DNA of 64,000 bases. It comes from Patescibacteria group bacterium (GTDB lineage: Bacteria; Patescibacteriota; Patescibacteriia; Magasanikbacterales; GWA2-37-8). Under the pieces are notes generated by a model. It was not told where the DNA came from. It saw only the letters and a program-made list of their open reading frames with translations, and did no database searches. Within the stretch, counting starts at the first letter, position 1, and every line of letters begins with the position of its first letter. The position numbers and the translations under genes are program-made. The DNA lies in contig SCQK01000013.1 in the NCBI GenBank assembly GCA_004321885.1, forward strand, positions 96,001 through 160,000, written 5' to 3'. Of the stretch, positions 2,072 through 64,000 are shown one piece after another.

Positions 2072-2123
2072 ATAAATTAATTACCCCTCCTTAATCCTCC
2101 CCTTAATAAGGGGGGGGAAATTG

Positions 2124-10447: not shown

Positions 10448-10477
10448 TGTCATTCCGGCCCCCGAGCCGGAATCCAG
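10448..10477. repeat. family-A hairpin repeat GTCATTCCGG-N7-CCGGAATCCAG
   Basis: other copies 11562-11588 (inside dnaX), 21342-21368, 21505-21530, 50745-50773, 55957-55991, 61391-61419 (inverted), 63974-64000 (partial). Confidence 0.85.
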
Positions 10478-10481
10478 TAAC

Positions 10482-11987
10482 ATGTCCACCCTCTACCGCC
10501 TCTACCGCCCGCAGAAGTTCGCCGACGTGACGGGCCAAGAGCACATCATCCAAACCATAACCAACGAGATATGCGCCGCTAAAACGGCGCATGCTTATCT
10601 ATTCTCGGGCCCGCGCGGCACCGGCAAGACCACCCTGGCCCGTCTGCTGGCTAAGGCCGTGAACTGCCAAAACCGCAAAGATGGGGAATCTGAACCGTGC
10701 AATGAGTGCCCATCTTGCGCGGAAATTTCCGCCAGCCGCAATATAGACGTAATGGAAATAGACGCGGCCTCGCATACGGGCGTGGAAAATGTGCGCGAAA
10801 ATATCATAGACAGCGCGCAATTTCAGCCCACCAAATCCAAATACAAAATTTTCATCATAGACGAGGTGCACATGCTTTCCACTCCGGCTTTCAACGCCCT
10901 GCTCAAAACCCTGGAAGAGCCGCCGGCGCACGTGATTTTCGTGCTGGCCACCACCGAACTGCAAAAACTGCCGGCTACCATTGTATCGCGCTGTCAACGT
11001 TTTACCTTCAAAAAAATCGGCTTTGACCAGATGATGAGCAAACTTTTGAAAATCTGCAAAGACCAGGACGTAAAGGTGGACAAAAAAGTGCTGGAGCGGG
11101 TGATAAACAAAAGCGACGGCTGTATGCGCGACGCTGAATCCCTGCTTGGTCAAATTTTAACGTTGAATCAAAAAAATATCGGGCCCGAAGACGCGGAAAT
11201 GATTTTGCCCACGTCCAATGCGCGACAGATTTTGAATTTCGTGGATGCAATTTTGAACCGCGACGTTAAAAGCGCCGTGGCTCTGATAAACGAACTGGTT
11301 TCCGACGGCGTGAATCTGGAGCAATTCGCCTATGACGCGCTGGAAATTTTGCGCCTGCTGATGATTTTGCAATACGACCCAACCAAGGAAATTTTGGATT
11401 ACAGCGACGAAGACGCCAAACTGATTAAAAAAATGACCAAACAGGCGCCGGCCGAGCAGATTATAAAATTAACGGACGCGCTGATGGCGCGCCGAGCGCA
11501 AATTAAATCCGCGCCTATTCCCCAGCTGCCCCTGGAGCTCTTCGCCGTGGAATTCTCAAACTGTCATTCCGGACTTGATACGGAATCCATCGCCGCCAAC
11601 TGTCATTCTGAGGCCCCGCTTAGCGGGGACGGAGAATCCCTCTCGCCATCTATCACGCAAAAAATCAAAACCACTCTGGACGAAATTAAAAACAAGTGGC
11701 ACGATATAACTGCCGGCCTCACCGAACAAAATCACTCACTCGGCTTTATCCTGAAAATGGGCGAACCGGCCAGAATGGAAGGAAATGAACTGTATTTGCG
11801 CGTGCCATTTTCCCTGCACAAAGAAAAAATTGAAGAGCAAAAAACCAAAAAATTGATAGAGGGCGCGATGACAGACGCCTTTGGGGAAAAAATTTGCCTG
11901 ATTTGCGAGGTGACGCAGGCGCAAAATGATGATGGCGAAATCACCCAGCTCGCGAGTGAATTTGGGGGTGAAGTTGTCTCACTCTAA
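10482..11987 (+). CDS. dnaX: DNA polymerase III subunit gamma/tau
   Basis: YRPQKFADVTGQEHI, AHAYLFSGPRGTGKTT, Zn module CNECPSC, box IFIIDEVHML; carries an in-frame repeat insertion at 11555-11613. Confidence 0.9.
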   Translation: MSTLYRLYRPQKFADVTGQEHIIQTITNEICAAKTAHAYLFSGPRGTGKTTLARLLAKAVNCQNRKDGESEPCNECPSCAEISASRNIDVMEIDAASHTGVENVRENIIDSAQFQPTKSKYKIFIIDEVHMLSTPAFNALLKTLEEPPAHVIFVLATTELQKLPATIVSRCQRFTFKKIGFDQMMSKLLKICKDQDVKVDKKVLERVINKSDGCMRDAESLLGQILTLNQKNIGPEDAEMILPTSNARQILNFVDAILNRDVKSAVALINELVSDGVNLEQFAYDALEILRLLMILQYDPTKEILDYSDEDAKLIKKMTKQAPAEQIIKLTDALMARRAQIKSAPIPQLPLELFAVEFSNCHSGLDTESIAANCHSEAPLSGDGESLSPSITQKIKTTLDEIKNKWHDITAGLTEQNHSLGFILKMGEPARMEGNELYLRVPFSLHKEKIEEQKTKKLIEGAMTDAFGEKICLICEVTQAQNDDGEITQLASEFGGEVVSL

Positions 11988-11997
11988 CCATCCCCAC

Positions 11998-12831
11998 ATG
12001 AAAATAATTATAATATCTTTATTACTAATCCTTGCTCCGGTCGCAGTTTCGTCAAAAACTCTAGTCAACCTTAACGTGCCCTTTACTCCGGAAACACCGG
12101 ACAATGTTTGGACAGCGCCCTGGAAAGACGCCTGCGAAGAGGCCAGTATCGTGATGGTCAGCCAATATTATTTAGGCAAACAAAACGCGCTCATACCAAA
12201 AGCGGCCGCCAAGGCGCTGATGCAAAAATATTTTACGATAGAAAACAAAATTTTTGGCTGGAACGCCAACACCGACGCGGCGCATACGGCTAAACTCATA
12301 AACGAGCACTCAAAAATTTTTGCCGCGGAAATAAAAAACAATCCGACGTTGGCAGAAATTAAAGCCGAGGTACAGGCCGGCCGGCCGGTAATTGCCGCCT
12401 TAAACGCTCTTGCGTTGACAAAAATCAACGACCATTTGCGCTTCCGCCGCAACGGCTCGTATTATCACATGCTGGTCATAGTGGGCTATGACGATGAAAC
12501 GAACGAGTTTATCGTGAACGATAACGGCGATTACAGCGGACTTGACCATCGCTACAGTTATGATATTATAATGGACTCTTTGCGCGATTACAGCTACAAA
12601 ACGCACAAGGCGAACGGCCCGGCGCGGGCGTTATTTACTTATCGCAAAATGCTGGCCAAAACCGCGACCAGCAACCGAATTTATTGGATAGAAAAAAATG
12701 TGAAACAATACGTCACCCACCCGGCCGTATTCAAACAACGCGGTTGGAGATGGGCCAACGTGCAGGTGGTGGAAAAAAGTGTGTTGGATGGGTTGACCAG
12801 CGGCACGCCAATCGCGCCATTGTCATCCTGA
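11998..12831 (+). CDS. secreted papain-like (peptidase C39-like) domain protein
   Basis: signal peptide MKIIIISLLLILAPVAVSS; catalytic-Cys context WKDACEEASIVMVSQYY and His context HMLVIVGYDDETNEF. Confidence 0.55.
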   Translation: MKIIIISLLLILAPVAVSSKTLVNLNVPFTPETPDNVWTAPWKDACEEASIVMVSQYYLGKQNALIPKAAAKALMQKYFTIENKIFGWNANTDAAHTAKLINEHSKIFAAEIKNNPTLAEIKAEVQAGRPVIAALNALALTKINDHLRFRRNGSYYHMLVIVGYDDETNEFIVNDNGDYSGLDHRYSYDIIMDSLRDYSYKTHKANGPARALFTYRKMLAKTATSNRIYWIEKNVKQYVTHPAVFKQRGWRWANVQVVEKSVLDGLTSGTPIAPLSS

Positions 12832-12860
12832 ATTTATTTCAGGATCTCCAACCCGTAACC

Positions 12861-12933: not shown

Positions 12934-13644
12934 ATGAAGATCGTCATTGTAATTCCCACATACAACGAAAGGAAGAACATCTCCAAACTAACCGAGAAAA
13001 TTTTTGCTTTGCGAATTGACGGGCTGGAAATGATCGTAGTGGACGACGGCTCGCCCGACGGAACCGGCGACAAGGTAAAAAAATTGGGCGAACGATTTCC
13101 GGTGACCCTGCTGGCGCGCGAAAAAAAACGCGGACTCGGTTCGGCTTACCTCGCCGGATTCAAGAAAGCCCTGGAAATGGGGGCTGATTTTATTTTTGAA
13201 ATGGACGCGGATTTGTCGCACGACCCCGACGACGTGCCAAGATTACTGGAGCCGTGCCTGGACGGCGCCGATTTGGCCATCGGCTCGCGCCGGGTGGCCG
13301 GCGGAAAGATTATCGGATGGGGCTGGGCGCGCAAATTCATGAGCGCCGGAGCCATGCGGCTGTCGCGCCTGATACTTCAATTAAAAAACAAAGACGTTAC
13401 CTCCGGCTTCAGATGTTGGCGCCGCGAAGCGCTTTTAAGAATTGACTTGGACAAAATCAAAAGCAACGGCTACGCTTTTCAGGAAGAAATACTCTGGCGC
13501 GCCCAGCAGGCGGGCCTGAAAATTGCCGAGGTACCGGTAATTTTTGTTGACCGCGAAGAAGGCAAATCCAAACTGGGCTGGAGAGAGGTATTGGAATTTT
13601 TTAAAGTAATGCTGTCATTGCGAGCGAAGCGAAGCAATCCCTAA
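12934..13644 (+). CDS. GT2 family dolichyl/polyprenyl-phosphate mannose (or glucose) synthase-like glycosyltransferase
   Basis: VVIPTYNE, VVDDGSPDGT, DAD motif, Dpm1-like fold; the C-terminal 11 aa are read from a family-B repeat. Confidence 0.8.
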   Translation: MKIVIVIPTYNERKNISKLTEKIFALRIDGLEMIVVDDGSPDGTGDKVKKLGERFPVTLLAREKKRGLGSAYLAGFKKALEMGADFIFEMDADLSHDPDDVPRLLEPCLDGADLAIGSRRVAGGKIIGWGWARKFMSAGAMRLSRLILQLKNKDVTSGFRCWRREALLRIDLDKIKSNGYAFQEEILWRAQQAGLKIAEVPVIFVDREEGKSKLGWREVLEFFKVMLSLRAKRSNP

Positions 13645-13693
13645 CACAAATGATTGGGATTGCTTCGGCGCTATGCGCCGCCTCGCAATGACA
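13613..13693. repeat. family-B nested palindrome GTCATTGCGAGCG..AAGCAATCCC..GGGATTGCTTCG..CTCGCAATGAC
   Basis: other copies 13859-13940, 19249-19298 (half), 21854-21937, 63753-63846. Confidence 0.85.
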
Positions 13694-14648
13694 ATAACAA
13701 CTCGTCAAAGGTTTTCACCCTCATTAATTTCATTTTTAATTCCTTCACTCCGGGAACGCCTTTGAAATAATAGGCGAGGTGTTTGCGAAAAGTTACCATA
13801 CTTCCTTCGCCGTAGCGCTCTAAATGCAGTTGCGCATGGCGGAGAATGACGTTTAAAATGTCATCGCGAGGAGACTGCAGGCCGACGAAGCAATCCCCTG
13901 CTTTATCAGATGGGGTTGCTTCGCTACGCTCGCAATGACAACGGAAAATCCACGGGTTGCCAAGCGCCCCGCGGCCTATCATCACGCCGTCCGCGCCAGT
14001 AATTTCCAAACACCGGCGGATGTCTTCGGACGAATTTATATCACCATTGGCCAGCGCCGGAATCTTTAACAACTTTTTCACGCGGCCAATCATTTCCCAG
14101 TTCGCTTTGCCGCTGTAGCCCTGCGTCTTGGTGCGGCCGTGAATCGTGAGTAAATCAGCGCCGGCCGCTTCCAATTTAGGCGCGAACTCCAAAATTTCTT
14201 CCTCTCTCCCCCACCCCAGCCGCGTCTTCACGGAAATCGGCGCGCCCAAATCCGCTTTTTTTAATTCTGCCACGATTTTTACCGCTCGCTCGTGGTCTTT
14301 CATCAAAGCCGCGCCCGAATTGACTTTGCCGGTTAATTTCGGCACCGGACAGCCCATATTAATGTCAATCCCGTCGGGTTTAAATTTTTCAACTAAAATC
14401 TCCGCGGCCTGACGCACTTGTTTGGGCTCGGCGCCGAACAATTGCAAAACAATCGGCCTTTCAATCGCGTCAAACTCGCACATTTTCAAGGTCTTGGCGT
14501 TGCCGCGGCAAATCGCCTCGGCGCTCACCATTTCCCGAAAAATCACGAAATCCGGGCCTGAAACCTCGCGGCAAACGCGACAAAACGGCCCGTCGGTCAT
14601 ATCGGCCATGGGCGCGAGCGCGACAATAGATCGTTCATCCATCCACAT
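13671..14648 (-). CDS. dusB: tRNA-dihydrouridine synthase (start moved to the internal Met; ORF-track start 14876)
   Basis: LAPMADMTDGPFCRVCRE, GIDINMGCP, TIHGRT, MIGRGALGNPWIF; contains an in-frame repeat at 13859-13940, and the C-terminus runs into a repeat at 13613-13693. Confidence 0.8.
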   Translation of the reverse strand: MWMDERSIVALAPMADMTDGPFCRVCREVSGPDFVIFREMVSAEAICRGNAKTLKMCEFDAIERPIVLQLFGAEPKQVRQAAEILVEKFKPDGIDINMGCPVPKLTGKVNSGAALMKDHERAVKIVAELKKADLGAPISVKTRLGWGREEEILEFAPKLEAAGADLLTIHGRTKTQGYSGKANWEMIGRVKKLLKIPALANGDINSSEDIRRCLEITGADGVMIGRGALGNPWIFRCHCERSEATPSDKAGDCFVGLQSPRDDILNVILRHAQLHLERYGEGSMVTFRKHLAYYFKGVPGVKELKMKLMRVKTFDELLLSLRGGA

Positions 14649-19230: not shown

Positions 19231-21333
19231 TTATGTATGGGATTGCTTCCCGCCAGAGGCGGGCAGGCGCTCTTCGCTCGCAATGACATTTTTTTTATGC
19301 CCCAAAAACATCCAATTGCCATACTCATTGAACCAGCGGAAAACAATGCGGATATTGATGCGGGTAACGGTAATGGCCGTAAACATGGAGACCAACGTGC
19401 CGATGGCCAACGTGACGGCAAAGCCCTGCACAAACCCGGTGCCAAACCATATAAGGAATCCGCAACTGATAAGGGTGGTGATATTGCTGTCGCGAATGGA
19501 CGGCCAGGCGCGCGCGAACGACTCCTCGGCCGCCGACAGCAAACTGCGGCCATTGCGTAATTCTTCTTTCATGCGCTCAAACACCAGCACATTGGCGTCT
19601 ACGGCCATACCGATAGACAAAATAAAGCCGGCAATGCCCGACAAGGTTAAAGTTACTCCGATAATCTTAAAGATGGCCAAACTTAAAAGGGCGTAGACGA
19701 GCAGAGAAACATTGGCCAACAAGCCGGGAAAGCGATAATAGCCAATCATGAAAAGCAAAACTAAAATCAAACCAACAATGCCGGCGAAAAAACTTTTACG
19801 CAGATACTCGGAACCCAAAGTGGCGTCCACTTTCTGCTGGCTGATGAGGTCTACGGCCACGGGCAAAGCGCCGGCGTTGAGGCGCTGGGACAAAAGCCGC
19901 GCTTCGCCGAGCGTGAAACTGCCCGAGATGACGGCCGAGCCGCTGGTGATGGCTTCGTTCACGCGCGGAATGCTAATGGGCTCACCGTCCAAAAATATGG
20001 CCACGTTCTTGCCCACATTGCGCGTGGTGATATCGCCGAACAATTTTGTGCCTTCTTCGTTGAATTGCAGATTGACCTGCACTTGTCCGGACTGATTATC
20101 CTGGGTTACCTCGGCGCGCTTGAGCTGCTTGCCCGACAAGCCCGAGCTTTTCCATTCCTCGGCCGGCGGCACGACATCGGAAGCCTGTTTAGTCTTCACG
20201 TACACGCGGGCCACCTCATATTCCCTGGACGGCTTTTCATCTTTTTTGTAAATAATGTGAAAACCGAATTTTGTTTCCACCGCATTGGACACAGCGCCCT
20301 TGGGCATCGCGCCCGCCGCCTCTTCAAACTCCGGCACCATTTGGCCCTTCTTAAACCAGCCCAGCTCTTCGCCGCGCACTTCCAATTTTTTATCCGGAGA
20401 ATATTGCTGTACCAACTGGGCAAAATTGGCGGGCGACGCCTGGGCTTTTATTTCACCGGCTCTTTGGCGGGCCTGGTCTTTGTTCAATTTGCTTTCACAC
20501 CCTTCGGCGCCGGCATAACAAACCAACAAGTGCGACGCGTTTATCATTTTTTCGCCGTCGCGGCCGGAGAGCCGTTTTACCACGTTCAAGCCGTCAAAAC
20601 TTTTCACCAGGGTTTTGCCCGCCTGGCCGTCTTTGGCTTTCTCGGCCCAAGCAAAAATTTCCGGATAAATTTCTTTGGTAATAAATCCCAGATTGCCGCC
20701 CTTGTCTTTGCTGGCCTGGTCTTCGGAATATTGGGCCGCGATTTTGCCGAAATCGGCCCCGGGTTTTAGGGCCGCGGTTAGAGCTGTTTTGGCTTTTTTA
20801 TCGGCCGCGCTGTTAAAAACGTCCAGGTCTTTTTTTTCTTGGGGTGTCAAATCGCGGGCCGGGTCGTGATTTTCTTCCTTAAATTCCAGTATCGGAGTTT
20901 CGCCAATCATTTTGATGGCCTGATTGACATCGGTAACGCCGGGCAATTCCACAATCACGCGATAATCGCCGCCGACCTTGGTGGTTTGCACCAATGGCTC
21001 GGCCACGCCCAGGCCCCCGCGCACGCGCCGCTCTATCACGTCGCGCACGCCTTCCACGGCGTCGCCGCGGTCGCCTTCGGGAATGGTTTCTGTTTTGGCC
21101 TGATAAACCAAATGCGCGCCGCCCTGCAAATCCAGGCCCAGATTAAAGCCCTTATCCGGCAAGCGGGGCAAACCGATGTTGGCCGCGTTGTTGAGCCAGT
21201 CTATGCCGCGGTTGGCGAACGCCGGCAAAACAATAAGCAGGGTGGCAATGGCCAAAGCGACCACGCCGGCCGCGTGCCATTTTAATTTTTTCGCCGACGA
21301 AACCTTGTTGGAAATTTTTACTGCCATAAACAC
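19231..21333 (-). CDS. secD: protein translocase subunit SecD with inserted parvulin-type PPIase domain(s)
   Basis: SecD motifs LGLDLQGG and GGLGVAEPLVQ plus the TM core; inserted segment ASHLLV...GEELGWFKKGQMVPEFEEAA...FGFHIIYK matches PpiC/parvulin; a second partial parvulin-like segment GADFGKIAAQYSED...GGNLGF. Confidence 0.85.
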   Translation of the reverse strand: MFMAVKISNKVSSAKKLKWHAAGVVALAIATLLIVLPAFANRGIDWLNNAANIGLPRLPDKGFNLGLDLQGGAHLVYQAKTETIPEGDRGDAVEGVRDVIERRVRGGLGVAEPLVQTTKVGGDYRVIVELPGVTDVNQAIKMIGETPILEFKEENHDPARDLTPQEKKDLDVFNSAADKKAKTALTAALKPGADFGKIAAQYSEDQASKDKGGNLGFITKEIYPEIFAWAEKAKDGQAGKTLVKSFDGLNVVKRLSGRDGEKMINASHLLVCYAGAEGCESKLNKDQARQRAGEIKAQASPANFAQLVQQYSPDKKLEVRGEELGWFKKGQMVPEFEEAAGAMPKGAVSNAVETKFGFHIIYKKDEKPSREYEVARVYVKTKQASDVVPPAEEWKSSGLSGKQLKRAEVTQDNQSGQVQVNLQFNEEGTKLFGDITTRNVGKNVAIFLDGEPISIPRVNEAITSGSAVISGSFTLGEARLLSQRLNAGALPVAVDLISQQKVDATLGSEYLRKSFFAGIVGLILVLLFMIGYYRFPGLLANVSLLVYALLSLAIFKIIGVTLTLSGIAGFILSIGMAVDANVLVFERMKEELRNGRSLLSAAEESFARAWPSIRDSNITTLISCGFLIWFGTGFVQGFAVTLAIGTLVSMFTAITVTRINIRIVFRWFNEYGNWMFLGHKKNVIASEERLPASGGKQSHT

Positions 21334-21377
21334 AATTATTATGTCATTCCGGGCTTGACCCGGAATCTATTTCCGTG

Positions 21378-21450
21378 TGGACGGTGCAGGACTCGGACCT
21401 GCGGCCCTTGCGATGTAAACGCAATGCTCTACCAACTGAGCTAACCGTCC
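21378..21450 (-). tRNA. tRNA-Val (anticodon TAC), no encoded CCA
   Basis: GGACGGTTAGCTCAGTTGGTAGAGC..TTGCG-TTTACAT-CGCAA..GCAGG-TCCGAGT-CCTGC-ACCGTCC-A. Confidence 0.8.
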
Positions 21451-21537
21451 GTCCGCATCTCGGCTATGATTTTACCCCTTTTTGCCTTTTTTGGCAAGAA
21501 CCATTGTCATTCCTGCGCAAGTAGGAATCCACAATCA

Positions 21538-21840
21538 TTACGATTCGTCCAAAATTATCTTTTCTTTGAATCCTCCCCTGTCTTCGGCCTTGGTGGCGCG
21601 TATTTTTTCCAGCTCAACGGCGTCATAACCCTTGAAATCGCGCATGGAATTGAGAACTTCGTAAAGGTCGCCCAAATCATGTGGCGATTCCGAGGAAAAA
21701 AACTCTCCCAGCTCCTCCAGCAGTTTTTCCTTCAACTTTTTCCAGTATTCCTCACTGCCGGCGATATGGTACACCGCCTGTCCGCCTTTGGCTTTGATGA
21801 TTTCGGGAATCTTGTCCCGCACGAGTTTATTGTATTTCAT
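21538..21840 (-). CDS. all-alpha NTP pyrophosphohydrolase (MazG/HisE-like) family protein
   Basis: MKYNKLVRDKIPEII N-terminus and E-rich helices typical of small MazG-like NTP-PPases. Confidence 0.5.
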   Translation of the reverse strand: MKYNKLVRDKIPEIIKAKGGQAVYHIAGSEEYWKKLKEKLLEELGEFFSSESPHDLGDLYEVLNSMRDFKGYDAVELEKIRATKAEDRGGFKEKIILDES

Positions 21841-21967
21841 ATAATCTAATCGCTGTCATTGCGAGCGAGCCACAAGCGAGCGCGGCAATCCCTTCCGTGT
21901 TTGGGATTGCTTCGCCCCTTCGGGGCTCGCAATGACATTTAAGTTTCAAAATAATTTTTACCTGTTT

Positions 21968-22733: not shown

Positions 22734-22760
22734 ACTACACAATTCGTTGTGGCAACAATC

Positions 22761-22846
22761 GTCATCCTGAACTTGTTTCAGGATCCCCACTGTCCAATTC
22801 GCCGACTCGCTCGATCGGAGATGCCGAAACAAGTTCGGCATGACAG
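22761..22846. repeat. family-C composite hairpins GTCATCCTGAACTTGTTTCAGGAT ... ATGCCGAAACAAGTTCGGCATGAC
   Basis: related copies 23161-23203 (ATGCTGAAATAAATTCAGCAT) and 46141-46157 (CCTGAAACAAGTTCAGG). Confidence 0.7.
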
Positions 22847-22865: not shown

Positions 22866-23159
22866 TCACTCCCATTCGTCGCTCAAGTCTTTCAAAGTGG
22901 GATTAAGTCCTTTTACTAAATTTATTTTCCACTGACGATGCCAATTTTTGATTTGTTTCTCTCTGTTAATTGCGTCACGTGGATCCAAAAAAACTTCGTA
23001 ATAAACTAACTTTTTCAGATTATACTGTTTTGTAAATCCCTCATTGATTCCATTTTTATGTTCTTCAAGCCGACGTTCTAGATTGTTCGTTATACCTACA
23101 TATAAAACCGTGTTGATGATGTTTGTTAAAATATACACATAAAATGTTTTCCCCTCCAT
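22866..23159 (-). CDS. GIY-YIG nuclease superfamily protein (UPF0213-like)
   Basis: YVYIL...LYVGITNNLERRLEEH matches the GIY-YIG motif. Confidence 0.85.
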   Translation of the reverse strand: MEGKTFYVYILTNIINTVLYVGITNNLERRLEEHKNGINEGFTKQYNLKKLVYYEVFLDPRDAINREKQIKNWHRQWKINLVKGLNPTLKDLSDEWE

Positions 23160-23201
23160 ACGATTTGCGATTGGAGATGCTGAAATAAATTCAGCATGAC
23201 A

Positions 23202-26156
23202 TTACTGGCCGTGACAGCGCTTGTATTTCTTCCCGCTGCCGCAAGGGCAAGGGTCGTTGCGGCCCACCACTTTGCCGGCCTCGTCGCGCACTTTTTTCCC
23301 GGCCGGCGCGGCGCCGTTGTCGCTGGTCTTGCTGGCCCCGCTAAACATCAGATTCCCCGCCTGCATCACCGACGGCGCTATCTGTATTCCCAAATTTACT
23401 TTATAAACCAAATACACCACTTCTTTTTGAATGTAATTAAGCAGTTCGTTGAACATCCGGTAGGTTTCTTTTTTGTATTCCACCAGCGGGTCGTGCTGGG
23501 CATAGCCGCGCAGGCCAATGCCGGTGCGCAAATAATCCACGGCCACCAAATGTTCCACCCACAGATTGTCTATGGCGCGCAGCAATACTTGTTTTTCTAT
23601 CTCGGCCATCATCTCGGGCGGGGCTTGTTTGACCAGCAGTTCCTCGTATTTATACTTGGCCGTTTCTATCAAAAATTCTATGAGTTGCGTCCTAATCGTA
23701 ACATCATCAACCCGCCCGCCCACCGGCGGGGCGCCAAATTCTCCGATTTTTTTCTTTTCATCGTCAGACAGCGGGAAAATGGTCGTCATTGTTTCGGCAA
23801 TTTCTTTCACATTCCAGTCACTGCGGTCTTCGGCGTTGGTATGGAACGAAACCACCTCTTCAATTTCCTGTTCTATCATTTCCAAAATCATGACGCGCAA
23901 ATTTTTTACCCCCTCTTTCGTCTCCCCCTTATCAAGGGGGAGAGAAGCGGTGGACGTCTCCGCCATATCACGAGAGAGAGAAGCGGTTGATTCAAAAGCG
24001 CGCAATACCTCGCGCCGTTTGCCGTAAATCACCTCGCGGTGCTTGTTGAGCACGTCATCGTACTCCAGCAAATGTTTGCGCGTGTCAAAATGCAAACCCT
24101 CCACTTTGCGCTGGGCGCTTTCTATAATGCGCGTAATCATCCCCTGCTCTATGGGCATGTCATCTGGCACTTTAAGGGCGTTCATTACCCCGCGTATTCT
24201 GTCGCCGGCAAAAATACGCATCAGGTCGTCTTCGGTGGAAAGGAAAAATTGCGACTGCCCCGGGTCGCCCTGGCGCCCGCTGCGGCCGCGCAACTGGTTG
24301 TCTATACGCCGGCTCTCGTGGCGCTCGGTGCCCAGCACAAACAAACCGCCGGCCGCGCGCACGCGCCCGGCTTCTTCGGGTACAGGCGGATTACCGCCCA
24401 AAATTATATCCACTCCCCTGCCGGCCATGTTGGTGGCCAGGGTCACGCGCCCGGGCTGGCCGGCCTGCGCGATTATCTCGCCCTCGCGCTCATGATTCTT
24501 GGCGTTTAGAATTTCATGCGCTATTCCCTCTCTTTGCAAATGCAAACTCAAGGCCTCGTTTTTCTCCACTGATACCGTGCCTATCAAAACCGGCTGGCCC
24601 TTGGCCTGTAATTCTTTTACCATCTGGGCGATGGCCTTGTGCTTGGCCTCTTCGGTTTTATAAATCCTGTCCGGAAAATTCGTGCGCTGGCTGGGTTTGT
24701 TCGGCGGAATTACCACCACTTCCAGTTTGTAAATTTTGCCGAACTCTTCGGCCTCGGTGACGGCCGTGCCGGTCATGCCCGACAGCTTTTCGTACAAACG
24801 GAAATAATTTTGAAAAGTAACCGTGGCCATGGTCTGACTTTCATGTTGAATGACCACGTTTTCTTTGGCTTCTATGGCCTGATGCAAGCCCTCGCTATAG
24901 CGGCGGCCCGGCATTTTGCGGCCGGTAAATTCGTCCACTATGAGCACCTCGCTGTTTTCCACGATATAGTCGCGGTCGCGCAAGAAAAGCGTCTGCGCCC
25001 GCAAAGCCTGCTCCACGTGGTGCACGGTACGCACCCCGCCCTCGGCGTAAATATTGTCCACGCCCAGCCATTTTTCCATTTTAGCGATGCCGGCTTCGGA
25101 AAGCGTGGCCGAGCGCATTTTTTCGTCTATGTTAAAGTCCTCGTTTTCTTTCAAGCGGCGCACCAGCTCGGCGAATTTGTAATACATGTCGGCCGCTTTT
25201 TCGGCCGGCGCGGAAATAATCAAGGGGGTGCGGGCTTCGTCTATTAAAATGGAGTCAACCTCGTCCACGATGGCGTAAAAAAACGGCCGCTGTACCATCT
25301 CGCTCAAATTTTGCACCATGTTGTCGCGCAAATAATCAAAGCCATATTCGTTGTTGGTGCCATAAGTGACGTCGCAGCCGTAGGCCTCTTGGCGCGAGCA
25401 GGGTTCCAAAAATTCCGTTTCCACTTTGTACATTCCTTTGGCGTCGCGTTCTTTGTCTGCTTCACTGCCCTCCTGTAACCCCACCCCCTGCCACCACACC
25501 AAAGATTTTGGTGTGGTGGCCTGCCCATCCCCTAATAGGGGAGGGGTTTTTGCGTAGCGAAAAGAAACACCAAGCTGTTGAATCACGCCCACGCTCAATC
25601 CCAAAGCATCATATATCTGCCCCATCCACACAGCGTCGCGTTTGGCCAAATAATCATTCACAGTCACCACGTGCACTCCCCTGCCGGCCAAGCCGTTTAG
25701 ATACACAGGCAAGGTAGCCACCAGGGTTTTGCCCTCGCCAGTGCCCATCTCAGCGATAGCGCCGCTATGCAAAGCCATGCCGCCCTTTAGCTGGACGTCA
25801 AAATGGCGCATACCAGTCAAACGTTTTGATGTTTCGCGCACCACGGCAAACGCCTCGGGCAAAATATCGTCCAGGGTGGCGCCGTCGGCCAAACGCTTTT
25901 TGAACTCATCGGTTTTGCCCCGCAACTGTTCCAAACTCAAAGACGCCATCCCGCTTTCCAGGGCATTGATTCTTTCCACGAGCGGCTTGTATCCGGCAAT
26001 CACTTTCGCATTCGGGTCGCCAAAAATTCTGCTAAAAAAAGACATAGAACCACTAATCTTTTTCGCTAATCTCACTAATCGCGAACGCCGTAATTCTATC
26101 ATATTTACGCGGAAAAGCAAGGGGTCGCGCGGTACACTGGCTCGCGCGATGAACAA
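23202..26156 (-). CDS. secA: preprotein translocase ATPase SecA
   Basis: DEAD motor motifs, TYGTNNEYGFDYLRDNM, C-terminal Zn finger CPCGSGKKYKRCHG; carries two in-frame repeat-derived insertions (23908-23986, 25468-25538). Confidence 0.95.
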   Translation of the reverse strand: MFIARASVPRDPLLFRVNMIELRRSRLVRLAKKISGSMSFFSRIFGDPNAKVIAGYKPLVERINALESGMASLSLEQLRGKTDEFKKRLADGATLDDILPEAFAVVRETSKRLTGMRHFDVQLKGGMALHSGAIAEMGTGEGKTLVATLPVYLNGLAGRGVHVVTVNDYLAKRDAVWMGQIYDALGLSVGVIQQLGVSFRYAKTPPLLGDGQATTPKSLVWWQGVGLQEGSEADKERDAKGMYKVETEFLEPCSRQEAYGCDVTYGTNNEYGFDYLRDNMVQNLSEMVQRPFFYAIVDEVDSILIDEARTPLIISAPAEKAADMYYKFAELVRRLKENEDFNIDEKMRSATLSEAGIAKMEKWLGVDNIYAEGGVRTVHHVEQALRAQTLFLRDRDYIVENSEVLIVDEFTGRKMPGRRYSEGLHQAIEAKENVVIQHESQTMATVTFQNYFRLYEKLSGMTGTAVTEAEEFGKIYKLEVVVIPPNKPSQRTNFPDRIYKTEEAKHKAIAQMVKELQAKGQPVLIGTVSVEKNEALSLHLQREGIAHEILNAKNHEREGEIIAQAGQPGRVTLATNMAGRGVDIILGGNPPVPEEAGRVRAAGGLFVLGTERHESRRIDNQLRGRSGRQGDPGQSQFFLSTEDDLMRIFAGDRIRGVMNALKVPDDMPIEQGMITRIIESAQRKVEGLHFDTRKHLLEYDDVLNKHREVIYGKRREVLRAFESTASLSRDMAETSTASLPLDKGETKEGVKNLRVMILEMIEQEIEEVVSFHTNAEDRSDWNVKEIAETMTTIFPLSDDEKKKIGEFGAPPVGGRVDDVTIRTQLIEFLIETAKYKYEELLVKQAPPEMMAEIEKQVLLRAIDNLWVEHLVAVDYLRTGIGLRGYAQHDPLVEYKKETYRMFNELLNYIQKEVVYLVYKVNLGIQIAPSVMQAGNLMFSGASKTSDNGAAPAGKKVRDEAGKVVGRNDPCPCGSGKKYKRCHGQ
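25468..25538. repeat. family-D CCCCTCCC...GGGAGGGG element with a CCACCACACCAAA-N-TTTGGTGTGGTGG core
   Basis: near-identical copy at 46641-46706; long copy 33832-33952; shorter CCCCTCC..GGAGGGG copies 2084-2120, 16096-16143, 23908-23986, 32401-32436, 39687-39733, 40690-40723, 47323-47364, 51559-51597, 57288-57324, 58103-58140. Confidence 0.85.
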
Positions 26157-30988: not shown

Positions 30989-30997
30989 TGAACCTTG

Positions 30998-32393: not shown

Positions 32394-33194
32394 TTACTTT
32401 TCCCTCCCTTTTATAAGGGGAGGGGCAGGGAGGGGTAGAACAGCATTCTTCGCGATGTCCAGCCATGTTTCCAGCTTGGCCGAAGCGCCCCCCACCAGCA
32501 CGCCGGAAACGTTCTCGCATTTCAGGTAGCCGGCGATGTTTTCCGGCCGCACGCTGCCGCCGTACAAAATTATTACAGCAGCCGCAGGCAAAAGTTCAAC
32601 GGCCAATTTATCTATAAAATTGTGCGCCACGGCGCAGGCCTCCGTATCATCGCAAGCGTTGCCGGTGCCAATGGCCCATACCGGTTCGTAGGCGATAAAA
32701 AGCGGCCTTTCGTCTTCTTTCGGCCAGGCCAAATTTTGCAAAGCGGCCCGAAGTTGGATTTCCAAAACTTCCTCTGTCTTACCCTCTTCTCTTTCCTTGG
32801 CTGTCTCGCCCACACACAGCACGGGCGTGAGTCCGGCTGCCAAAATCGCTTCCAATTTTTGCCTCACTTCATGATTGCTTTCGCCAAATTGATGCCGGCG
32901 CTCGGAGTGGCCGACCAGCGCGTATTCGCAACCGGCCGCCTGAAACATCTGGGCCGAAACTTCGCCGGTGTAGCCGCCCTTGTCCACCCAATAAACGTTT
33001 TGCGCGCCCACGCCGATGCCGGCGTCGCGCAGTACCTGGCCAGCGCTGTATAAAGAAAGCGCGCTTGGAAAAACAGTCATTTTCACGTTCGTCGGAAATT
33101 TTTCCGCCTCGCCGGCCAAAGCGTTGGCCAAAATATTGCTCTCGTCAAAATCCAAATACATTTTCCAGTTGGCGAAAAGATAAATTTGTTTCAT
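32394..33194 (-). CDS. tpiA: triosephosphate isomerase
   Basis: FANWKMY, VGHSERR, AYEPVWAIGTG, GGS...N; the C-terminal tail PLPAPPLIKGREK is encoded by a family-D repeat. Confidence 0.9.
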   Translation of the reverse strand: MKQIYLFANWKMYLDFDESNILANALAGEAEKFPTNVKMTVFPSALSLYSAGQVLRDAGIGVGAQNVYWVDKGGYTGEVSAQMFQAAGCEYALVGHSERRHQFGESNHEVRQKLEAILAAGLTPVLCVGETAKEREEGKTEEVLEIQLRAALQNLAWPKEDERPLFIAYEPVWAIGTGNACDDTEACAVAHNFIDKLAVELLPAAAVIILYGGSVRPENIAGYLKCENVSGVLVGGASAKLETWLDIAKNAVLPLPAPPLIKGREK

Positions 33195-34579
33195 ACGAGT
33201 AATTTCAAAATTTCTTCTTTTGATTTCGGCCCGATTACCGCCAACCGCATTCGCTTCCAATCAAAAAATCTTCGTGCCGCGCCACGCACCTGCCCGGCCG
33301 TAACGCGCTCTATTTTTTCCAACTGCTGTTCCGGCGTCTCTATTTTATCAGCGAACCAGTGCTGGCGCGCGAACCACTCGGCCACGGCGCTGGAATTTTC
33401 CATGGATAGCGCCATGCGGCCCGAAATGTTTGTTTTGGCGTCGTCTAATTCTTTTTTGCTGATGCCTTTATCCGCAATTTTTTTCAGTTCGCTTTTAATT
33501 ACCGAAAGCGCTTCGCCCAGCCGGTTGGAATCCAAACCAGCGTTAATGGTGATAACGCCGGTTTCGTTGTGGCTGACCCCGCCGGCGTGAATCATATAGG
33601 CCAATCCCCTTTTCTCGCGCACCTCCACGAACAAACGTGAACTCATGCCGGAGCCGAGCACGGTAAGCAATACCGCGTTCGCGTACCTGATAGGATCGTT
33701 GTAGGCGAAACCCGCGAACCCCATCACAACGTGCGACTGATCTATTTTTCTCTGTTCAACGCTAACCCGTTTTTCCAACGGCAATTCGCCCGCCGGCCAG
33801 CTGAATTTTATAAAATTTTCTTTGTTGAAATACCCCTCCTTCCCGCTCCCCTTTATAAGGGGAGGGAAACTATCGGCAGTTCCTCCCCCTTGATAAGGGG
33901 GAGGCTCGCCACCACACCAAATGCTTTGGTGTGGTGGCGAGGAGGGGGTATTCGCGAAATACTTCGCGGCCAACTTTTTTATTTTTTCCCGCGGCGCGTT
34001 GCCCGACACCGCCAGCGCCATATTCGCGGGCGTGTAAGCATTTTTGTAATACGCGAACAGCTCGTCCCGCGTAATATTTTTTACTGTCTCGGCCGTGCCG
34101 GCCACATCCCGCCCCAGTGGATTGCCGCCAAACACCGTGCGGTCAAAAACCAGCTCCACGGCCATGCTCGGATTATCTTCATACATCTTTATTTCTTCGG
34201 CAATCACTCCCCGCTCTTTGGTGATTTCTTTTTCGTCAAAAGTGGAATCAAAGAGCATGTCCGCCAAAATATCAAAAGCCAATTCCACCCGCCGGCCGTC
34301 TATTTTAATATAATAGCCGGTATAATCCTTGTAGGTAAAGGCGTTATAATCCGCGCCCACCGCGTCCAACTCGCGCGAAATATGCTGGGCCGTGGGACGT
34401 TTTTTTGTTCCTTTGAACATCAGATGCTCCACAAAGTGCGAAGCCCCGGAAATTTTCGCTGTCTCATAGCGCGAACCCACCGGCAATAAAACCATCACCG
34501 TGACGGCTTTGGTGCCGCCCGTCGGCGCCGTGATTAGCGACAAGCCATTTTTTAATTTTGATAGCCGATGCATAATCAC
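33191..34579 (-). CDS. M16 family zinc metallopeptidase (insulinase-like)
   Basis: HxxEH inverzincin motif HFVEHLMFKGT; two-domain M16 fold; carries a roughly 35-aa in-frame repeat insertion (33832-33952). Confidence 0.8.
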   Translation of the reverse strand: MIMHRLSKLKNGLSLITAPTGGTKAVTVMVLLPVGSRYETAKISGASHFVEHLMFKGTKKRPTAQHISRELDAVGADYNAFTYKDYTGYYIKIDGRRVELAFDILADMLFDSTFDEKEITKERGVIAEEIKMYEDNPSMAVELVFDRTVFGGNPLGRDVAGTAETVKNITRDELFAYYKNAYTPANMALAVSGNAPREKIKKLAAKYFANTPSSPPHQSIWCGGEPPPYQGGGTADSFPPLIKGSGKEGYFNKENFIKFSWPAGELPLEKRVSVEQRKIDQSHVVMGFAGFAYNDPIRYANAVLLTVLGSGMSSRLFVEVREKRGLAYMIHAGGVSHNETGVITINAGLDSNRLGEALSVIKSELKKIADKGISKKELDDAKTNISGRMALSMENSSAVAEWFARQHWFADKIETPEQQLEKIERVTAGQVRGAARRFFDWKRMRLAVIGPKSKEEILKLLV

Positions 34580-39679: not shown

Positions 39680-39740
39680 ACTATTTACCCTTACCTCCCT
39701 CCCCCTTAAAAAAGGAGAGGACAGGAGGGGGTATTCAATT

Positions 39741-63008: not shown

Positions 63009-63758
63009 CTATTTTTTCATCAATTTCTCAATCACCTCCACGTCATTATTTTTCGCGAACGCTCCGTAAATCGCTTTCAATTCCTTTTGATTAAACCCGT
63101 AACCCAATTCAAGCGCTTGCTTGGCCGAGCCGTACGCTTTATCCAAATCATTCTTGTTTAGATAAATCAACGCCAGCATCCAGTGCGATTCGGCAATGCC
63201 CGGCGCCAAGTCAATGGCTTCCTGCGCCAGCTTGATCGCCTCGTCATTCTTGCCTTGCAACATCTTGGCGCGCGCCAAACCCCAGATAATTGTTTGCCGG
63301 CGCGGACTGTAGGGCAGAATTTTTTTATACTGCTCCACGGCCGCTTCCAAGTAACCGGGGTTTAGCCAAAAATCATAACCGTCTTGATAGGCCCTGGCCA
63401 AAATCGCGCCGGCGCGCGCGTCGGCCGGATATTTTTCCAAATAAAATTTCATGGCGCCCTCTCCCACCGAATACATATCCGCGGCCAATTTTCGGTAATC
63501 GGAAAAAGCAAAATCCGGGTGCTGGGCCAGCCATACCAAGAAAAATTGTCCGAATTCAAAAGAGATGTCGTAGGCGTACGGATTTGGTTTTATTTTTATC
63601 GCCTCTTTGTGCAGTTTGATGGCCGAGCCGAAGTCGGTCATCGCTTTTCTGATGGCCAGGGCCGAAATATGGTCGGCCTTGGCCGGAATAATGGAAAAGC
63701 GGTTGATGAGAATGAAGGCGGCGAAAAAAATAAGCAAGATGGCGAGGAGGCGTGTCAT
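63009..63758 (-). CDS. TPR-repeat membrane protein (start moved past a repeat-derived N-terminal extension)
   Basis: N-terminal TM LLAILLIFFAAFILI; TPR-like helices. Confidence 0.6.
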   Translation of the reverse strand: MTRLLAILLIFFAAFILINRFSIIPAKADHISALAIRKAMTDFGSAIKLHKEAIKIKPNPYAYDISFEFGQFFLVWLAQHPDFAFSDYRKLAADMYSVGEGAMKFYLEKYPADARAGAILARAYQDGYDFWLNPGYLEAAVEQYKKILPYSPRRQTIIWGLARAKMLQGKNDEAIKLAQEAIDLAPGIAESHWMLALIYLNKNDLDKAYGSAKQALELGYGFNQKELKAIYGAFAKNNDVEVIEKLMKK

Positions 63759-64000
63759 TGCGAGAAGCCCCGACGTAACGTCGGGGCGACGCGGCAATCT
63801 CTCATTTGCCTGGGATTGCTTCGGCCTTTCACGCCTCGCAATGACATCCACCCCGGCCAAAAGATAGAAAAAAAATAAATACGATGACTCGTTTTCAAAA
63901 ACAAACAAATTTTGAACCAGGTGCGCGGTAAAAAAAGCGCCCAGGCCAATGGCTAAAATCCAATCACGATTATCTGGATTCCGAGCCCGAAGGGCTCCAT

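What the first reader, a model, noticed from the sequence alone, without database searches (positions are those of the whole stretch)
13613..13940. Dihydrouridine synthase gene bracketed and penetrated by family-B repeats; M16 peptidase and tpiA show the same
Dus (13671-14648) contains an in-frame copy (13859-13940, read as ..CHCERSEATPSDKAGDCFVGLQSPRDD..), and its stop lies within another copy (13613-13693) that also supplies the last 11 codons of the upstream DPM-synthase gene. Likewise the M16 peptidase has a 120-nt family-D insert (33832-33952, ..GGEPPPYQGGGTADSFPPLIKGSGKEGY..) and tpiA ends in a repeat-encoded PLPAPPLIKGREK tail (32401-32436). The elements are being exapted as coding sequence.
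Basis: seen in the sequence. Interest (0 to 1): 0.5.

Follow-up and report, generated by a model that had tools for sequence, protein, structure and literature searches.

The report
Hairpin repeats translated inside housekeeping genes
A small-genome Patescibacteria bacterium carries short palindromic "selfish" DNA hairpins of the same kind as the Neisseria dRS3 and Rickettsia RPE repeats. Several sit in frame inside essential genes, where they are probably read through as floppy surface loops or tails, and this looks like a tolerated passenger rather than a new function.

Summary
Dus (13671-14648, minus strand) carries an 82-nt palindromic element (13859-13940) in frame. It encodes residues 237-263, which lie in the linker between the TIM barrel and the helical domain. 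A second copy (13613-13693) spans the junction of the convergent GT2 and Dus genes and gives both genes their last codons and stop codons. The M16 peptidase insert and the TpiA tail are also confirmed.

Family B is not a private repeat. Each half reads TGTC + ATTGC...GCAAT + CC, which is a variant of the "CGTC-tagged REP" / NTS / SRM hairpin superfamily (Neisseria dRS3, Rickettsia RPE-4/6). In-frame intragenic copies of that superfamily are already described. The exact B termini occur in many bacterial phyla.

The window also encodes a 97-aa single-domain GIY-YIG nuclease (22866-23159). It is flanked on both sides by family-C hairpins, matching the published repeat-ssn-repeat layout.

Of 120 Dus orthologues, 38 carry inserts, and these fall in four loops. 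Closely related proteins have a B-type insert, a D-type insert or no insert at the same linker.

My verdict is tolerated passenger insertions filtered by selection, not demonstrated exaptation. This is a new member (Patescibacteria) of a known kind.

The parts
13859..13940 (.). Family-B element (inverted pair of TGTC-tagged hairpin units), in frame inside Dus. It encodes residues 237-263.
   Evidence: One arm carries a T>C change, and the fold is weaker than in the other copies (-34.6 against about -46 kcal/mol).
13613..13693 (.). Family-B element at the junction of two convergent genes. It supplies the last codons and the stop codon of both GT2 (+) and Dus (-).
   Evidence: (z = -7.1). In relatives the two genes abut or overlap with no element between them.
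13671..14648 (-). tRNA-dihydrouridine synthase (DusB-like), 325 aa.
   Evidence: Pfam 6.5e-80. AF2 model pLDDT 89.5. Foldseek matches 1vhn and 6ei9 with TM 0.80-0.88.
12934..13644 (+). GT2-family glycosyltransferase whose C-terminal SLRAKRSNP* is encoded by the element.
   Evidence: Pfam PF00535, 4.7e-30; sequence.
22866..23159 (-). Single-domain GIY-YIG nuclease, 97 aa, of the Ssn type.
   Evidence: Pfam PF01541, 1.2e-19. Tyr9/Tyr20/Glu67 sit at a constant +3 offset from the Y6/Y17/E64 mutated in N. meningitidis SsnA. Thousands of homologues of about 96 aa.
23171..23201 (-). Family-C hairpin (TGTCATGCTGAATTTATTTCAGCATCTCC) just upstream of the GIY-YIG gene.
22760..22844 (.). Family-C inverted pair just downstream of the GIY-YIG gene.
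   Evidence: Homologous GIY-YIG genes in three other Patescibacteria have the same hairpin directly upstream.
21854..21937 (.). Family-B element, intergenic.
63753..63846 (.). Family-B element at the 5' end of a TPR-protein gene. Its terminal CAATGACA probably provides the ATG of MTRLLAILL...
   Evidence: The choice of start codon is inferred.
19240..19288 (-). Single family-B half that supplies the tail (..VIASEERLPASGGKQSHT*) of the gene at 19231-21333, which I read as SecDF-like from its sequence.
11561..11640 (+). Two tandem family-A hairpins (TGTCATTCCGG..GGAATCC) in frame in dnaX.
33829..33952 (.). Composite family-D/E element (three hairpins inside an outer stem), in frame in the M16 peptidase interdomain linker.
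   Evidence: (z = -10.3).
33191..34579 (-). M16 (pitrilysin-family) peptidase, 462 aa.
32397..32438 (.). Family-D hairpin that encodes the TpiA tail LPLPAPPLIKGREK and its stop codon.
32394..33194 (-). Triosephosphate isomerase.
   Evidence: Pfam 9.7e-77; PDB alignments.
25477..25545 (.). Family-D/E element in frame in SecA. It lies within the extra segment, residues 155-218.
23904..23990 (.). Family-D units in frame in SecA. They lie within the extra segment, residues 682-715.
10448..10479 (+). Family-A hairpin that fills the whole gap between the upstream gene and dnaX. Similar single units lie at 12821-12850, 21342-21375, 21505-21530, 46469-46502, 50744-50775 and 61388-61419.
   Evidence: 17 GTCA-hairpin-TC sites against 1.7 +/- 1.3 in shuffles.

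Best explanation
**What the repeats are.** Families A, B and C of this window are TGTC/CGTC-tagged hairpin repeats. Each unit is a tag, a stem that starts with AT, a loop, and a C-rich tail. They occur singly or as inverted pairs with the tags facing outward. This matches the described 'CGTC-tagged REP' superfamily (Neisseria dRS3/NTS, Rickettsia RPE-4 and RPE-6, the 'SRM' motifs). Family B is a variant in which the stem ATTGC/GCAAT encloses a variable mini-hairpin, often GCGAAGC.

**The protein partner.** The published partner of this superfamily is Ssn, a roughly 94-aa GIY-YIG nuclease. It binds the hairpin only as single-stranded DNA and cuts a few bases upstream of it. One such gene lies in the window, flanked by family-C hairpins.

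**How copies end up in genes.**
- Shown: the repeats have multiplied.
- Inferred: they multiply by an ssDNA-based mechanism that involves the nuclease.
- About 93% of the window is covered by my greedy ORF map. The copies that survive are therefore those in the tiny intergenic gaps, those that overrun gene ends (donating the last codons and a stop, or a start), and those that landed in frame and free of stops in permissive loops.
- In Dus the pair sits in the barrel-to-helical-domain linker and is translated as a disordered 27-residue loop. Its last codons (PRDD) continue into the next helix.
- The family-D/E insert in M16 and the TpiA tail show the same outcome for a second, G/C-tract hairpin family that is not classified.

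**Role of the peptides.** They are passengers. No new function is needed to explain them.
For: **Repeat identity**
- The conserved tag, stem and tail are seen in families A, B and C.
- They fit the published definition: tag CGTC or TGTC, stem of 8-9 bp starting with AT, loop of 4-5, tail CCA, frequent dimers, and intragenic in-frame dimers encoding 20-30 aa (PMC3733652).
- NTS is CGTCATTCCCGCGMAVGCGGGAATCYRG. Its binding and cleavage determinants are the bases just upstream of the palindrome and the C just after it (PMC11893778).

**Spread of family B**
- The scan was stopped at 120 loci, which come from Bacteroidota, Chloroflexota, Cyanobacteria, Planctomycetota, Pseudomonadota, Nitrospirota, Patescibacteria and others.
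- In 251 of 264 halves, GCAATC follows a variable spacer of 7-21 nt.

**Nuclease link**
- The window GIY-YIG gene is flanked by C hairpins on both sides.
- All three closer homologues examined have the C hairpin directly upstream.
- The only three GIY-YIG homologues found in 867 kb of B-element loci are each immediately flanked by B-type units.

**Insertion and tolerance**
- Orthologue alignment shows the insert is an addition.
- In the AF2 model, residues 244-258 are the only segment with pLDDT below 50.
- 38 of 120 orthologues have inserts of at least 8 aa, and these fall in four loops.
- Empty, D-type and B-type states occur among near relatives.
- B-element lengths show no preference for multiples of three: 51, 45 and 36 elements fall in the three remainder classes. 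In-frame copies are therefore a selected subset.
Against: - Nothing here shows that the insert is present in the mature protein.
- Ssn has been shown to cut ssDNA and to modulate transformation in Neisseria. It has not been shown to move repeats.
- The strict published SRM search pattern matches only one site in the window, 46469-46502, so families B and C fall outside that narrow definition.
- No B-associated GIY-YIG gene is present in the 64-kb window.
- The family-D/E elements (M16, TpiA, SecA) carry no TGTC tag and have no known partner.
- Different families sit at exactly the same Dus site in proteins at an alignment distance of about 0.10 (roughly 90% similar), each preceded by TCGTC. 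This hints at site or hairpin targeting, which a pure selection filter does not explain.
Confidence: 0.75

Rival explanations
1. True exaptation: the repeat-encoded loops and tails have acquired a function, such as a new interaction surface or a change in tRNA or substrate handling, and are kept for that reason.
For: - The inserts lie at domain boundaries in enzymes that act on macromolecules: the Dus linker, the M16 interdomain linker and SecA.
- The 3' codons of the Dus insert (PRDD) are modelled as part of the next helix.
- Di Nocera et al. noted that intragenic REPs are enriched in nucleic-acid enzymes.
Against: - The core of the insert is disordered.
- The same loop holds unrelated families, or nothing, in close relatives.
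- The peptide sequence is dictated by the palindrome, and the frame used differs between lineages: CHCE..RDD here, VIAR..RND elsewhere.
Confidence: 0.1
2. The elements exist for an RNA- or DNA-level host function, such as 3'-end stabiliser or terminator hairpins between convergent genes, or marks that restrict incoming ssDNA during natural transformation as in Neisseria. Coding overlap would then be a by-product of a compact genome.
For: - The junction copy sits exactly between convergent genes. Most CGTC and GTAG REPs lie close behind 3' ends.
- The hairpins are very stable.
- In N. meningitidis, NTS together with SsnA lowers transformation by NTS-bearing DNA.
- This reading can coexist with the selfish one.
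Against: - No U-tract terminator is found at 13300-14200.
- Copies also sit inside ORFs and inside an L10 leader, where such a role is implausible.
- Rapid gain, loss and replacement between relatives does not look like conserved regulation.
Confidence: 0.15
3. Artefact or decay: the inserts are assembly or sequencing errors, or Dus, M16 and the other genes are pseudogenes on the way to being lost.
For: The exact Dus and M16 proteins are known from only one contig. The organism is a metagenome-assembled genome (MAG), and repeats are known to attract misassemblies.
Against: - The reading frames are intact through every insert.
- Catalytic domains score at full length.
- Independent assemblies of relatives carry full B-type or D-type elements at the same Dus site.
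- Essential genes (secA, dnaX) are affected as well.
Confidence: 0.03
4. The elements are not translated. They would be removed from the mRNA or skipped by the ribosome, as with introns or the bypass elements of T4 gene 60 and yeast mitochondria.
For: The elements form strong local structure within the mRNA. The same window holds a genuine group I intron, showing that intervening sequences occur in this genome.
Against: - Every internal copy in the window is in frame and free of stop codons. Removal or bypass would not require that.
- There is no Rfam intron match at the elements.
- Rickettsia proteins that carry RPE-1 are reported to be expressed with the insert (cited in PMC3733652).
Confidence: 0.02

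Closest known systems
CGTC-tagged REPs (Di Nocera, De Gregorio & Rocco 2013, PMC3733652), which include Neisseria dRS3 and Rickettsia conorii RPE-4/RPE-6
   Same: - The tag is TGTC or CGTC, the stem starts with AT, and the tail is C-rich.
- Inverted dimers are frequent.
- Copies sit behind 3' ends and between convergent genes.
- Intragenic in-frame dimers encode 20-30 aa.
- Families A and C fit the definition closely.
   Different: - Patescibacteria is not among the five phyla listed in that paper.
- Family B has a short 5-bp basal stem that encloses a variable insert of 7-21 nt, rather than an 8-9-bp stem with a 4-5-nt loop.
- The density in coding sequence is far higher here.
NTS / SRM repeats and the Ssn GIY-YIG ssDNA nucleases (Chenal et al. 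2025, PMC11893778)
   Same: - The motif is a GTCA-hairpin-TC.
- The nuclease gene is a single-domain GIY-YIG of about 94-97 aa, flanked by the hairpins on both sides.
- Different nuclease lineages are paired with different hairpin variants.
   Different: - That paper reports NTS as rarely intragenic (2% in N. meningitidis).
- In the main text I searched, it mentions neither Patescibacteria nor RPEs nor coding insertions.
- Its strict SRM pattern matches only one site in this window.
- The enzyme activity of the window protein is untested.
Rickettsia palindromic elements (Ogata et al. 2000, 2002; summarised in PMC10969869)
   Same: Palindromic selfish repeats are inserted in frame into unrelated housekeeping genes of a reduced genome, at positions compatible with the fold.
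   Different: - RPE-1 is longer (about 100-150 bp) and specific to Rickettsia.
- I did not test sequence similarity to RPEs directly. The link rests on the assignment of RPE-4/6 to the CGTC families by Di Nocera et al.
GTAG REPs / REPINs with RAYT transposases, and BIMEs of enterobacteria
   Same: Short hairpin units form inverted pairs, a small dedicated gene is flanked by its own repeats, and some copies provide stop codons to neighbouring ORFs.
   Different: The tag differs (GTAG) and the enzyme differs (HUH tyrosine transposase of the IS200/IS605 family). No such gene was seen next to the repeats examined here.

Membership tests
CGTC-tagged REP superfamily | Unpaired CGTC (or TGTC/CCTC) tag at one end of the unit | tested here: met
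   TGTC is present in all B, A and C units, and CGTC at 22760.
CGTC-tagged REP superfamily | Stem of 8-9 bp that begins with complementary A-T and T-A pairs, with a loop of 4-5 nt | tested here: inconclusive
   Families A (ATTCCGGC/GCCGGAAT) and C (ATCCTGAA/TTCAGGAT) meet it. Family B has only ATTGC/GCAAT around a variable insert of 7-21 nt.
CGTC-tagged REP superfamily | Short unpaired C-rich tail (consensus CCA) | tested here: met
   The tail is CCA(G) in family A, CTCC or CCCC in family C, and CCC or CTC in family B.
CGTC-tagged REP superfamily | Frequent inverted dimers that can fold as one long hairpin | tested here: met
   Four B pairs and one C pair are present, with fold z-scores from -3.4 to -7.7.
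Ssn nuclease family (cd10448) | Single-domain GIY-YIG protein of about 94 aa | tested here: met
   The protein is 97 aa and Pfam GIY-YIG covers residues 6-80 at 1.2e-19. Homologues are 92-118 aa.
Ssn nuclease family (cd10448) | Assignment to CDD cd10448, or close similarity to N. meningitidis SsnA | not testable with these tools
   No CDD library and no SsnA sequence were available. The only indirect support is that Tyr9/Tyr20/Glu67 lie at a constant offset from Y6/Y17/E64.
Ssn nuclease family (cd10448) | Gene flanked by its cognate hairpin repeats on both sides | tested here: met
   C hairpins lie at 23171-23201 and 22760-22844. The same arrangement is seen in homologues.
Ssn nuclease family (cd10448) | Flanking repeats match the published degenerate SRM search pattern | tested here: not met
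   The strict pattern matches only 46469-46502 in the window, against 0.18 expected. The flanking C hairpins do not match it.
Ssn nuclease family (cd10448) | Site-specific cleavage of single-stranded DNA next to the hairpin | not testable with these tools
   This needs a biochemical assay.
Rickettsia palindromic elements (RPE) | In-frame insertion into conserved protein genes at structurally permissive sites | tested here: met
   This holds for Dus, M16, SecA and DnaX.
Rickettsia palindromic elements (RPE) | Sequence similarity to an RPE family consensus | not tested
   No RPE sequences were available. The relation rests on PMC3733652.

The most novel reading that the evidence does not exclude
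Ssn-type GIY-YIG nucleases would be the long-missing mobilising enzymes of the CGTC-tagged REP / RPE superfamily. Nuclease lineages would be matched to hairpin variants: the KNWHRxWKxNL type with family C, and the KAGSRQKKIxL type with family B. In Patescibacteria these elements would insert preferentially at pre-existing hairpin or TCGTC sites, so the same protein loops are hit and overwritten again and again. That would make them a major source of protein-length variation across the phylum.
Probability: 0.25. Interest if true: 0.7.

Novelty: new member of a known kind. Interest (0 to 1): 0.45.

Why it matters
**Annotation of Patescibacteria proteins.** Patescibacteria have tiny, gene-dense genomes, and many of their proteins show unexplained length differences. 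In this 64-kb window at least eight conserved genes carry repeat-derived codons:
- Dus, GT2, DnaX, SecA (twice), a SecDF-like gene, TpiA and the M16 peptidase.
- A TPR-protein gene probably takes its start codon from a repeat.

A third of Dus orthologues also carry such inserts. Recognising these segments prevents them from being read as novel domains or motifs, and it explains recurrent 'hypothetical peptide' matches such as VIARS.., CHCE.., ..LAMT and PPLIKGG.

**Connecting three literatures.** The window links RPEs in coding genes (2000), CGTC-tagged REPs 'without a transposase' (2013) and Ssn nucleases (2025) in a single locus. It offers a tractable test case: one small nuclease gene with its hairpins beside many solo copies.

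Tried and rejected
- **Rfam.** No family matches the elements at either the gathering or the E-value threshold. The only hit was a chance mir-204 match at E = 4.2.
- **Published SRM pattern.** Applied literally, it found only one site. I replaced it with a generic GTCA-stem-loop-stem-TC scan, which found 17 sites against 1.7 expected.
- **Plasmid BLAST with the B element.** It gave two weak hits, in Aulosira and Novosphingobium, and nothing informative.
- **NCBIfam and PDB sequence searches for the GIY-YIG protein.** These returned only sub-threshold or distant hits: a group I intron endonuclease model below its cutoff, and 1zg2 (UPF0213) at 7e-4.
- **Missing sources.** Ogata 2002 (PMC186582) is not held, and the Ssn paper has no text supplements held. 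I therefore could not compare directly with RPE consensus sequences or with the SsnA sequence.
- **Intrinsic terminator scan at the junction copy.** It found none.
- **Literature search.** I found no paper describing these repeats in Patescibacteria or the Candidate Phyla Radiation. The library is incomplete, so this is not proof of absence.
- **Intrinsic 3n length periodicity of B elements.** Rejected: the three remainder classes hold 51, 45 and 36 elements.
Full report

Yes. The 12-mer TGTCATTGCGAG (up to 1 mismatch) occurs 10 times in the window, against 0.25 expected from shuffles. These occurrences form:
- four inverted pairs, at 13613-13693, 13859-13940, 21854-21937 and 63753-63846;
- one half unit, at 19240-19288.

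Each full copy folds as a long outer stem around an inner stem (GCAATCCC/GGGATTGC) and variable side hairpins. Folding z-scores range from -3.5 to -7.7 as RNA or DNA.

The ORF at 13671-14648(-) is a full-length Dus:
- Pfam PF01207 scores 6.5e-80.
- An identical protein is annotated in a 'Patescibacteria group bacterium' contig of 175,928 bp.

The internal copy is in frame and encodes CHCERSEATPSDKAGDCFVGLQSPRDD, residues 237-263.

The junction copy ends both convergent genes. GT2 reads ..MLSLRAKRSNP* and Dus reads ..LLSLRGGA*. Because the element is palindromic, both genes enter it through the same TGTCATTGCGAG and read (L)SLR.

**2.

I aligned 120 Dus homologues with 57-69% identity, mostly from Magasanikbacteria and other Patescibacteria.
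- The segment between GNPWIF (end of the TIM barrel) and VVLRHAxLH (start of the helical domain) is only about 8-15 residues in most of them.
- The window protein has 27 extra residues at that point.

An AlphaFold2 model built with 72 sequences has mean pLDDT 89.5 and pTM 0.88.
- The only stretch below pLDDT 50 is residues 244-258, the middle of the insert.
- The two ends of the insert extend the flanking helices.
- The model superposes on solved Dus structures of 305-318 residues (1vhn, E. coli DusB 6ei9) with TM 0.80-0.88.

The insert is therefore a disordered addition to an interdomain linker.

**3. M16 and TpiA**
- Against PDB 3hdi, M16 residues 212-270 face only residues 209-224 of the solved chain.
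- Among 119 orthologues the corresponding segment is 43-49 aa in most and 78 aa here. A few relatives have smaller Pro/Gly-rich inserts at the same place.
- The inserted DNA (33829-33952) is a composite of three hairpins closed by an outer stem, with z = -10.3.
- The TIM domain of TpiA ends near residue 250 of 266. The tail LPLPAPPLIKGREK and the stop codon come from the hairpin at 32397-32438.

**4. The same thing elsewhere in the window**
- SecA has two extra segments, residues 155-218 and 682-715, that coincide with D/E-type repeats at 25477-25545 and 23904-23990.
- DnaX carries two tandem family-A hairpins in frame at 11561-11640.
- The gene at 19231-21333, which I read as SecDF-like, ends in a single B half.
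- The gene at 11926-12831 takes its stop codon from a family-C hairpin.
- The TPR-protein gene probably takes its ATG from the CAATGACA end of the fourth B copy.
- A family-A hairpin is even inserted in the L10 leader RNA.

A greedy ORF map covers about 93% of the window. A generic scan for GTCA-stem-loop-stem-TC finds 17 sites, against 1.7 +/- 1.3 in shuffles.

**5. What the elements are**

Families A (TGTC ATTCCGGC .. GCCGGAAT CCA), C (TGTC ATCCTGAA .. TTCAGGAT CTCC) and each half of B (TGTC ATTGC .. GCAAT CCC) share a tag, a stem starting with AT, and a C-rich tail.

A full-text search for the end sequences led to Chenal et al. 2025 (PMC11893778). That paper reports:
- The Neisseria NTS repeat, CGTCATTCCCGCGMAVGCGGGAATCYRG, contains dRS3.
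- Its relatives (SRMs) are bound as single-stranded DNA by Ssn, a 94-aa single-domain GIY-YIG nuclease, which cuts a few nucleotides upstream.
- The bases just before the palindrome and the C just after it are the key determinants.
- ssn genes are typically flanked by their repeats.
- Rickettsia, Wolbachia and Neisseria carry hundreds of copies.

Di Nocera et al. 2013 (PMC3733652) had already defined the 'CGTC-tagged REP' superfamily:
- The tag is CGTC or TGTC, the stem is 8-9 bp starting with AT, the loop is 4-5 nt, the tail is CCA, and most units form dimers.
- dRS3 and R. conorii RPE-4/RPE-6 were assigned to it.
- Copies often abut the 3' ends of convergent genes.
- Intragenic in-frame copies were reported, with dimers encoding 20-30 aa.
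- The authors concluded that these repeats 'apparently lack a dedicated transposase'.

Families A and C fit this definition. Family B is a variant with a 5-bp basal stem around a variable insert.

**6. Family B is pan-bacterial**

The hosts include:
- Mucilaginibacter and Flavobacterium
- many Chloroflexota
- Planctomycetota
- Nostoc and Microcoleus
- Alpha-, Beta-, Gamma- and Deltaproteobacteria
- Nitrospirota, Verrucomicrobiota, Gemmatimonadota, Omnitrophota and Clostridia
- several Patescibacteria

Across 132 elements:
- In 251 of 264 halves, GCAATC follows a variable spacer of 7-21 nt. The commonest spacer is CGAAGCGAA, which contains GCGAAGC. From my own knowledge, this is a very stable DNA mini-hairpin.
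- Lengths run from 71 to 99 nt with no preference for multiples of three: 51, 45 and 36 elements fall in the three remainder classes.

**7. The nuclease in the window**

ORF 22866-23159(-) is a 97-aa protein that consists of a GIY-YIG domain only (Pfam 1.2e-19).
- A family-C hairpin lies directly upstream (23171-23201), and a family-C inverted pair lies directly downstream (22760-22844).
- Tyr9, Tyr20 and Glu67 lie at a constant +3 offset from the Y6, Y17 and E64 that were mutated in SsnA.
- The three closer homologues whose loci I fetched (Buchananbacteria, Levybacteria and a JGI metagenome contig, 64-67% identity) all have GTCATCCTGAACTTGTTTCAGGATC just upstream.
- Conversely, in 867 kb of DNA around B elements from other phyla, tblastn found three homologues with 55-61% identity, in Woesebacteria, Nostoc and Dehalococcoidales. 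Each is immediately bracketed by B-type units.
- C-flanked proteins share KNWHRxWKxNL, whereas B-flanked proteins have KAGSRQKKIxL. With four against three sequences, this is only a hint of matched specificities.

I could not run CDD or obtain the SsnA sequence, so formal membership of cd10448 is untested.

**8. Hot spots and turnover**
- 38 of 120 Dus orthologues have at least one internal insert of 8 aa or more.
- These fall at four places: after residues about 30-33, about 86-90, about 107, and about 244. All four are loops in the model.
- The inserts come from different repeat families, with peptide signatures such as CHPELVSGS, VIPAKAGIH..AGMT, PLLRGEG, PPLIRGG and VIAR..RND.

At the linker, DNA from relatives shows several states:
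- a full B-type pair in P0106, P0048 and P0011;
- a D-type pair in P0003 and P0094;
- an empty site in P0013.

On a tree built from the 305 well-aligned columns:
- The four B carriers are not monophyletic.
- P0106 (B-type) and P0094 (D-type) are at distance 0.10.
- P0003 (D-type) and P0013 (empty) are at distance 0.076.

The window copy enters the element in a different codon phase (CHCE..) from the other B carriers (VIAR..), with the entry point shifted by 2 nt.

There have therefore been several independent gains, losses or replacements at one loop. Both filled types are preceded by TCGTC or TCGTT, which I cannot explain. It may indicate targeting.

**9. Mechanism: what is shown and what is inferred**

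Shown:
- The repeats are multi-copy, structured and phylogenetically widespread.
- They belong by sequence architecture to the CGTC-REP / NTS class.
- A GIY-YIG gene of the right type is flanked by them.
- Internal copies are in frame and sit in disordered loops.
- Occupancy of these loops changes quickly between relatives.

Inferred:
- The elements spread through a single-stranded DNA intermediate that involves the nuclease. This mirrors the authors' own IS-like hypothesis, which remains untested.
- The coding copies are the survivors of selection for frame, absence of stop codons and structural tolerance.
- The peptides have no function of their own.

Not explained:
- How the family-D/E hairpins move.
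- Why different families occupy an identical site.

**10. Comparison with what is known, and novelty**

In-frame palindromic repeats in housekeeping genes have been known since the Rickettsia RPEs (summarised in PMC10969869). Intragenic CGTC REPs and their habit of donating gene ends are also described. The Ssn association was published in 2025.

What seems new:
- the host phylum, since my searches found no paper on these repeats in Patescibacteria;
- the density of coding copies;
- the recurrent-loop turnover;
- the family-B architecture and its breadth;
- the co-occurrence of solo coding copies and a repeat-flanked nuclease gene in a single window.

I rate this as a new member of a known kind and of moderate interest.

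**11.

The interpretation 'being exapted' is only partly supported: the repeats are co-opted into reading frames, but there is no evidence that they have been co-opted into function.

Noticed in passing
window 30997-31291 (-): A tRNA-Tyr(GTA) gene is interrupted in the anticodon loop by a 212-nt group I intron. Rfam Intron_gpI matches 31051-31263 at 61.7 bits, and ARAGORN finds the tRNA only when introns are allowed.
   Followed up: partly
window 50671-50848 (-), hairpin at 50744-50775: The ribosomal protein L10 leader (RF00557) contains a family-A TGTC hairpin as an insertion in its variable region. The repeats therefore also colonise a cis-regulatory RNA.
   Followed up: partly
window 23202-26048 (-): 25477-25545 and 23904-23990: SecA carries two repeat-derived in-frame segments, residues 155-218 and 682-715, that are absent from solved SecA structures.
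   Followed up: partly
window 11561-11640 (+): DnaX carries two tandem, same-orientation family-A hairpins in frame (..NCHSGLDTESIAANCHSEAPLSGDGESLS..). The second has a nested extra hairpin.
   Followed up: partly
window 63753-63846 and ORF 63009-63908 (-): The fourth B copy sits at the 5' end of a TPR-protein gene. The ATG in its terminal CAATGACA is the likely start codon (MTRLLAILLIFF.., a predicted membrane helix).
   Followed up: no
L128, L131-L134 (Dus loci of relatives) versus window 13859-13940: At the same Dus linker, proteins that are 87-92% similar have a B-type pair, a D-type pair or no insert. Both filled types are preceded by TCGTC or TCGTT. This suggests replacement or targeting at one site and remains unexplained.
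   Followed up: partly
window 22866-23159; L038, L079, L111, L123, L124, L126: GIY-YIG genes flanked by C-type hairpins share KNWHRxWKxNL near the C-terminus. Those flanked by B-type hairpins have KAGSRQKKIxL. This may be a specificity determinant, but the sample is only four against three.
   Followed up: partly
window 46469-46581, inside ORF 46153-46632 (-): An NTS-like hairpin at 46469-46502 is the only strict SRM-pattern match in the window. It is followed by an exact 36-nt tandem duplication of another hairpin (46510-46545 and 46546-46581). All of this lies inside an ORF that has a weak TsaD-family match.
   Followed up: no
window 21342-21937: A 100-aa ORF of unknown family (21538-21840, minus strand) is bracketed by an A-type hairpin (21505-21530) and a B pair (21854-21937). 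tRNA-Val lies between two A-type hairpins. The small intergenic gaps here consist almost entirely of repeats.
   Followed up: no
window 2079-2120, 39695-39735, 40687-40723, 46118-46192, 46638-46711, 47328-47364, 58100-58141: Further copies of the G/C-tract 'family D/E' hairpins (CCCCTCCCC..GGGGAGGG, GCCACCACACCAAA..TTTGGTGTGGTGGC) lie mostly in intergenic gaps. A similar element lies next to the GIY-YIG gene in a Nostoc locus (L079). Their mobilising factor is unknown.
   Followed up: no
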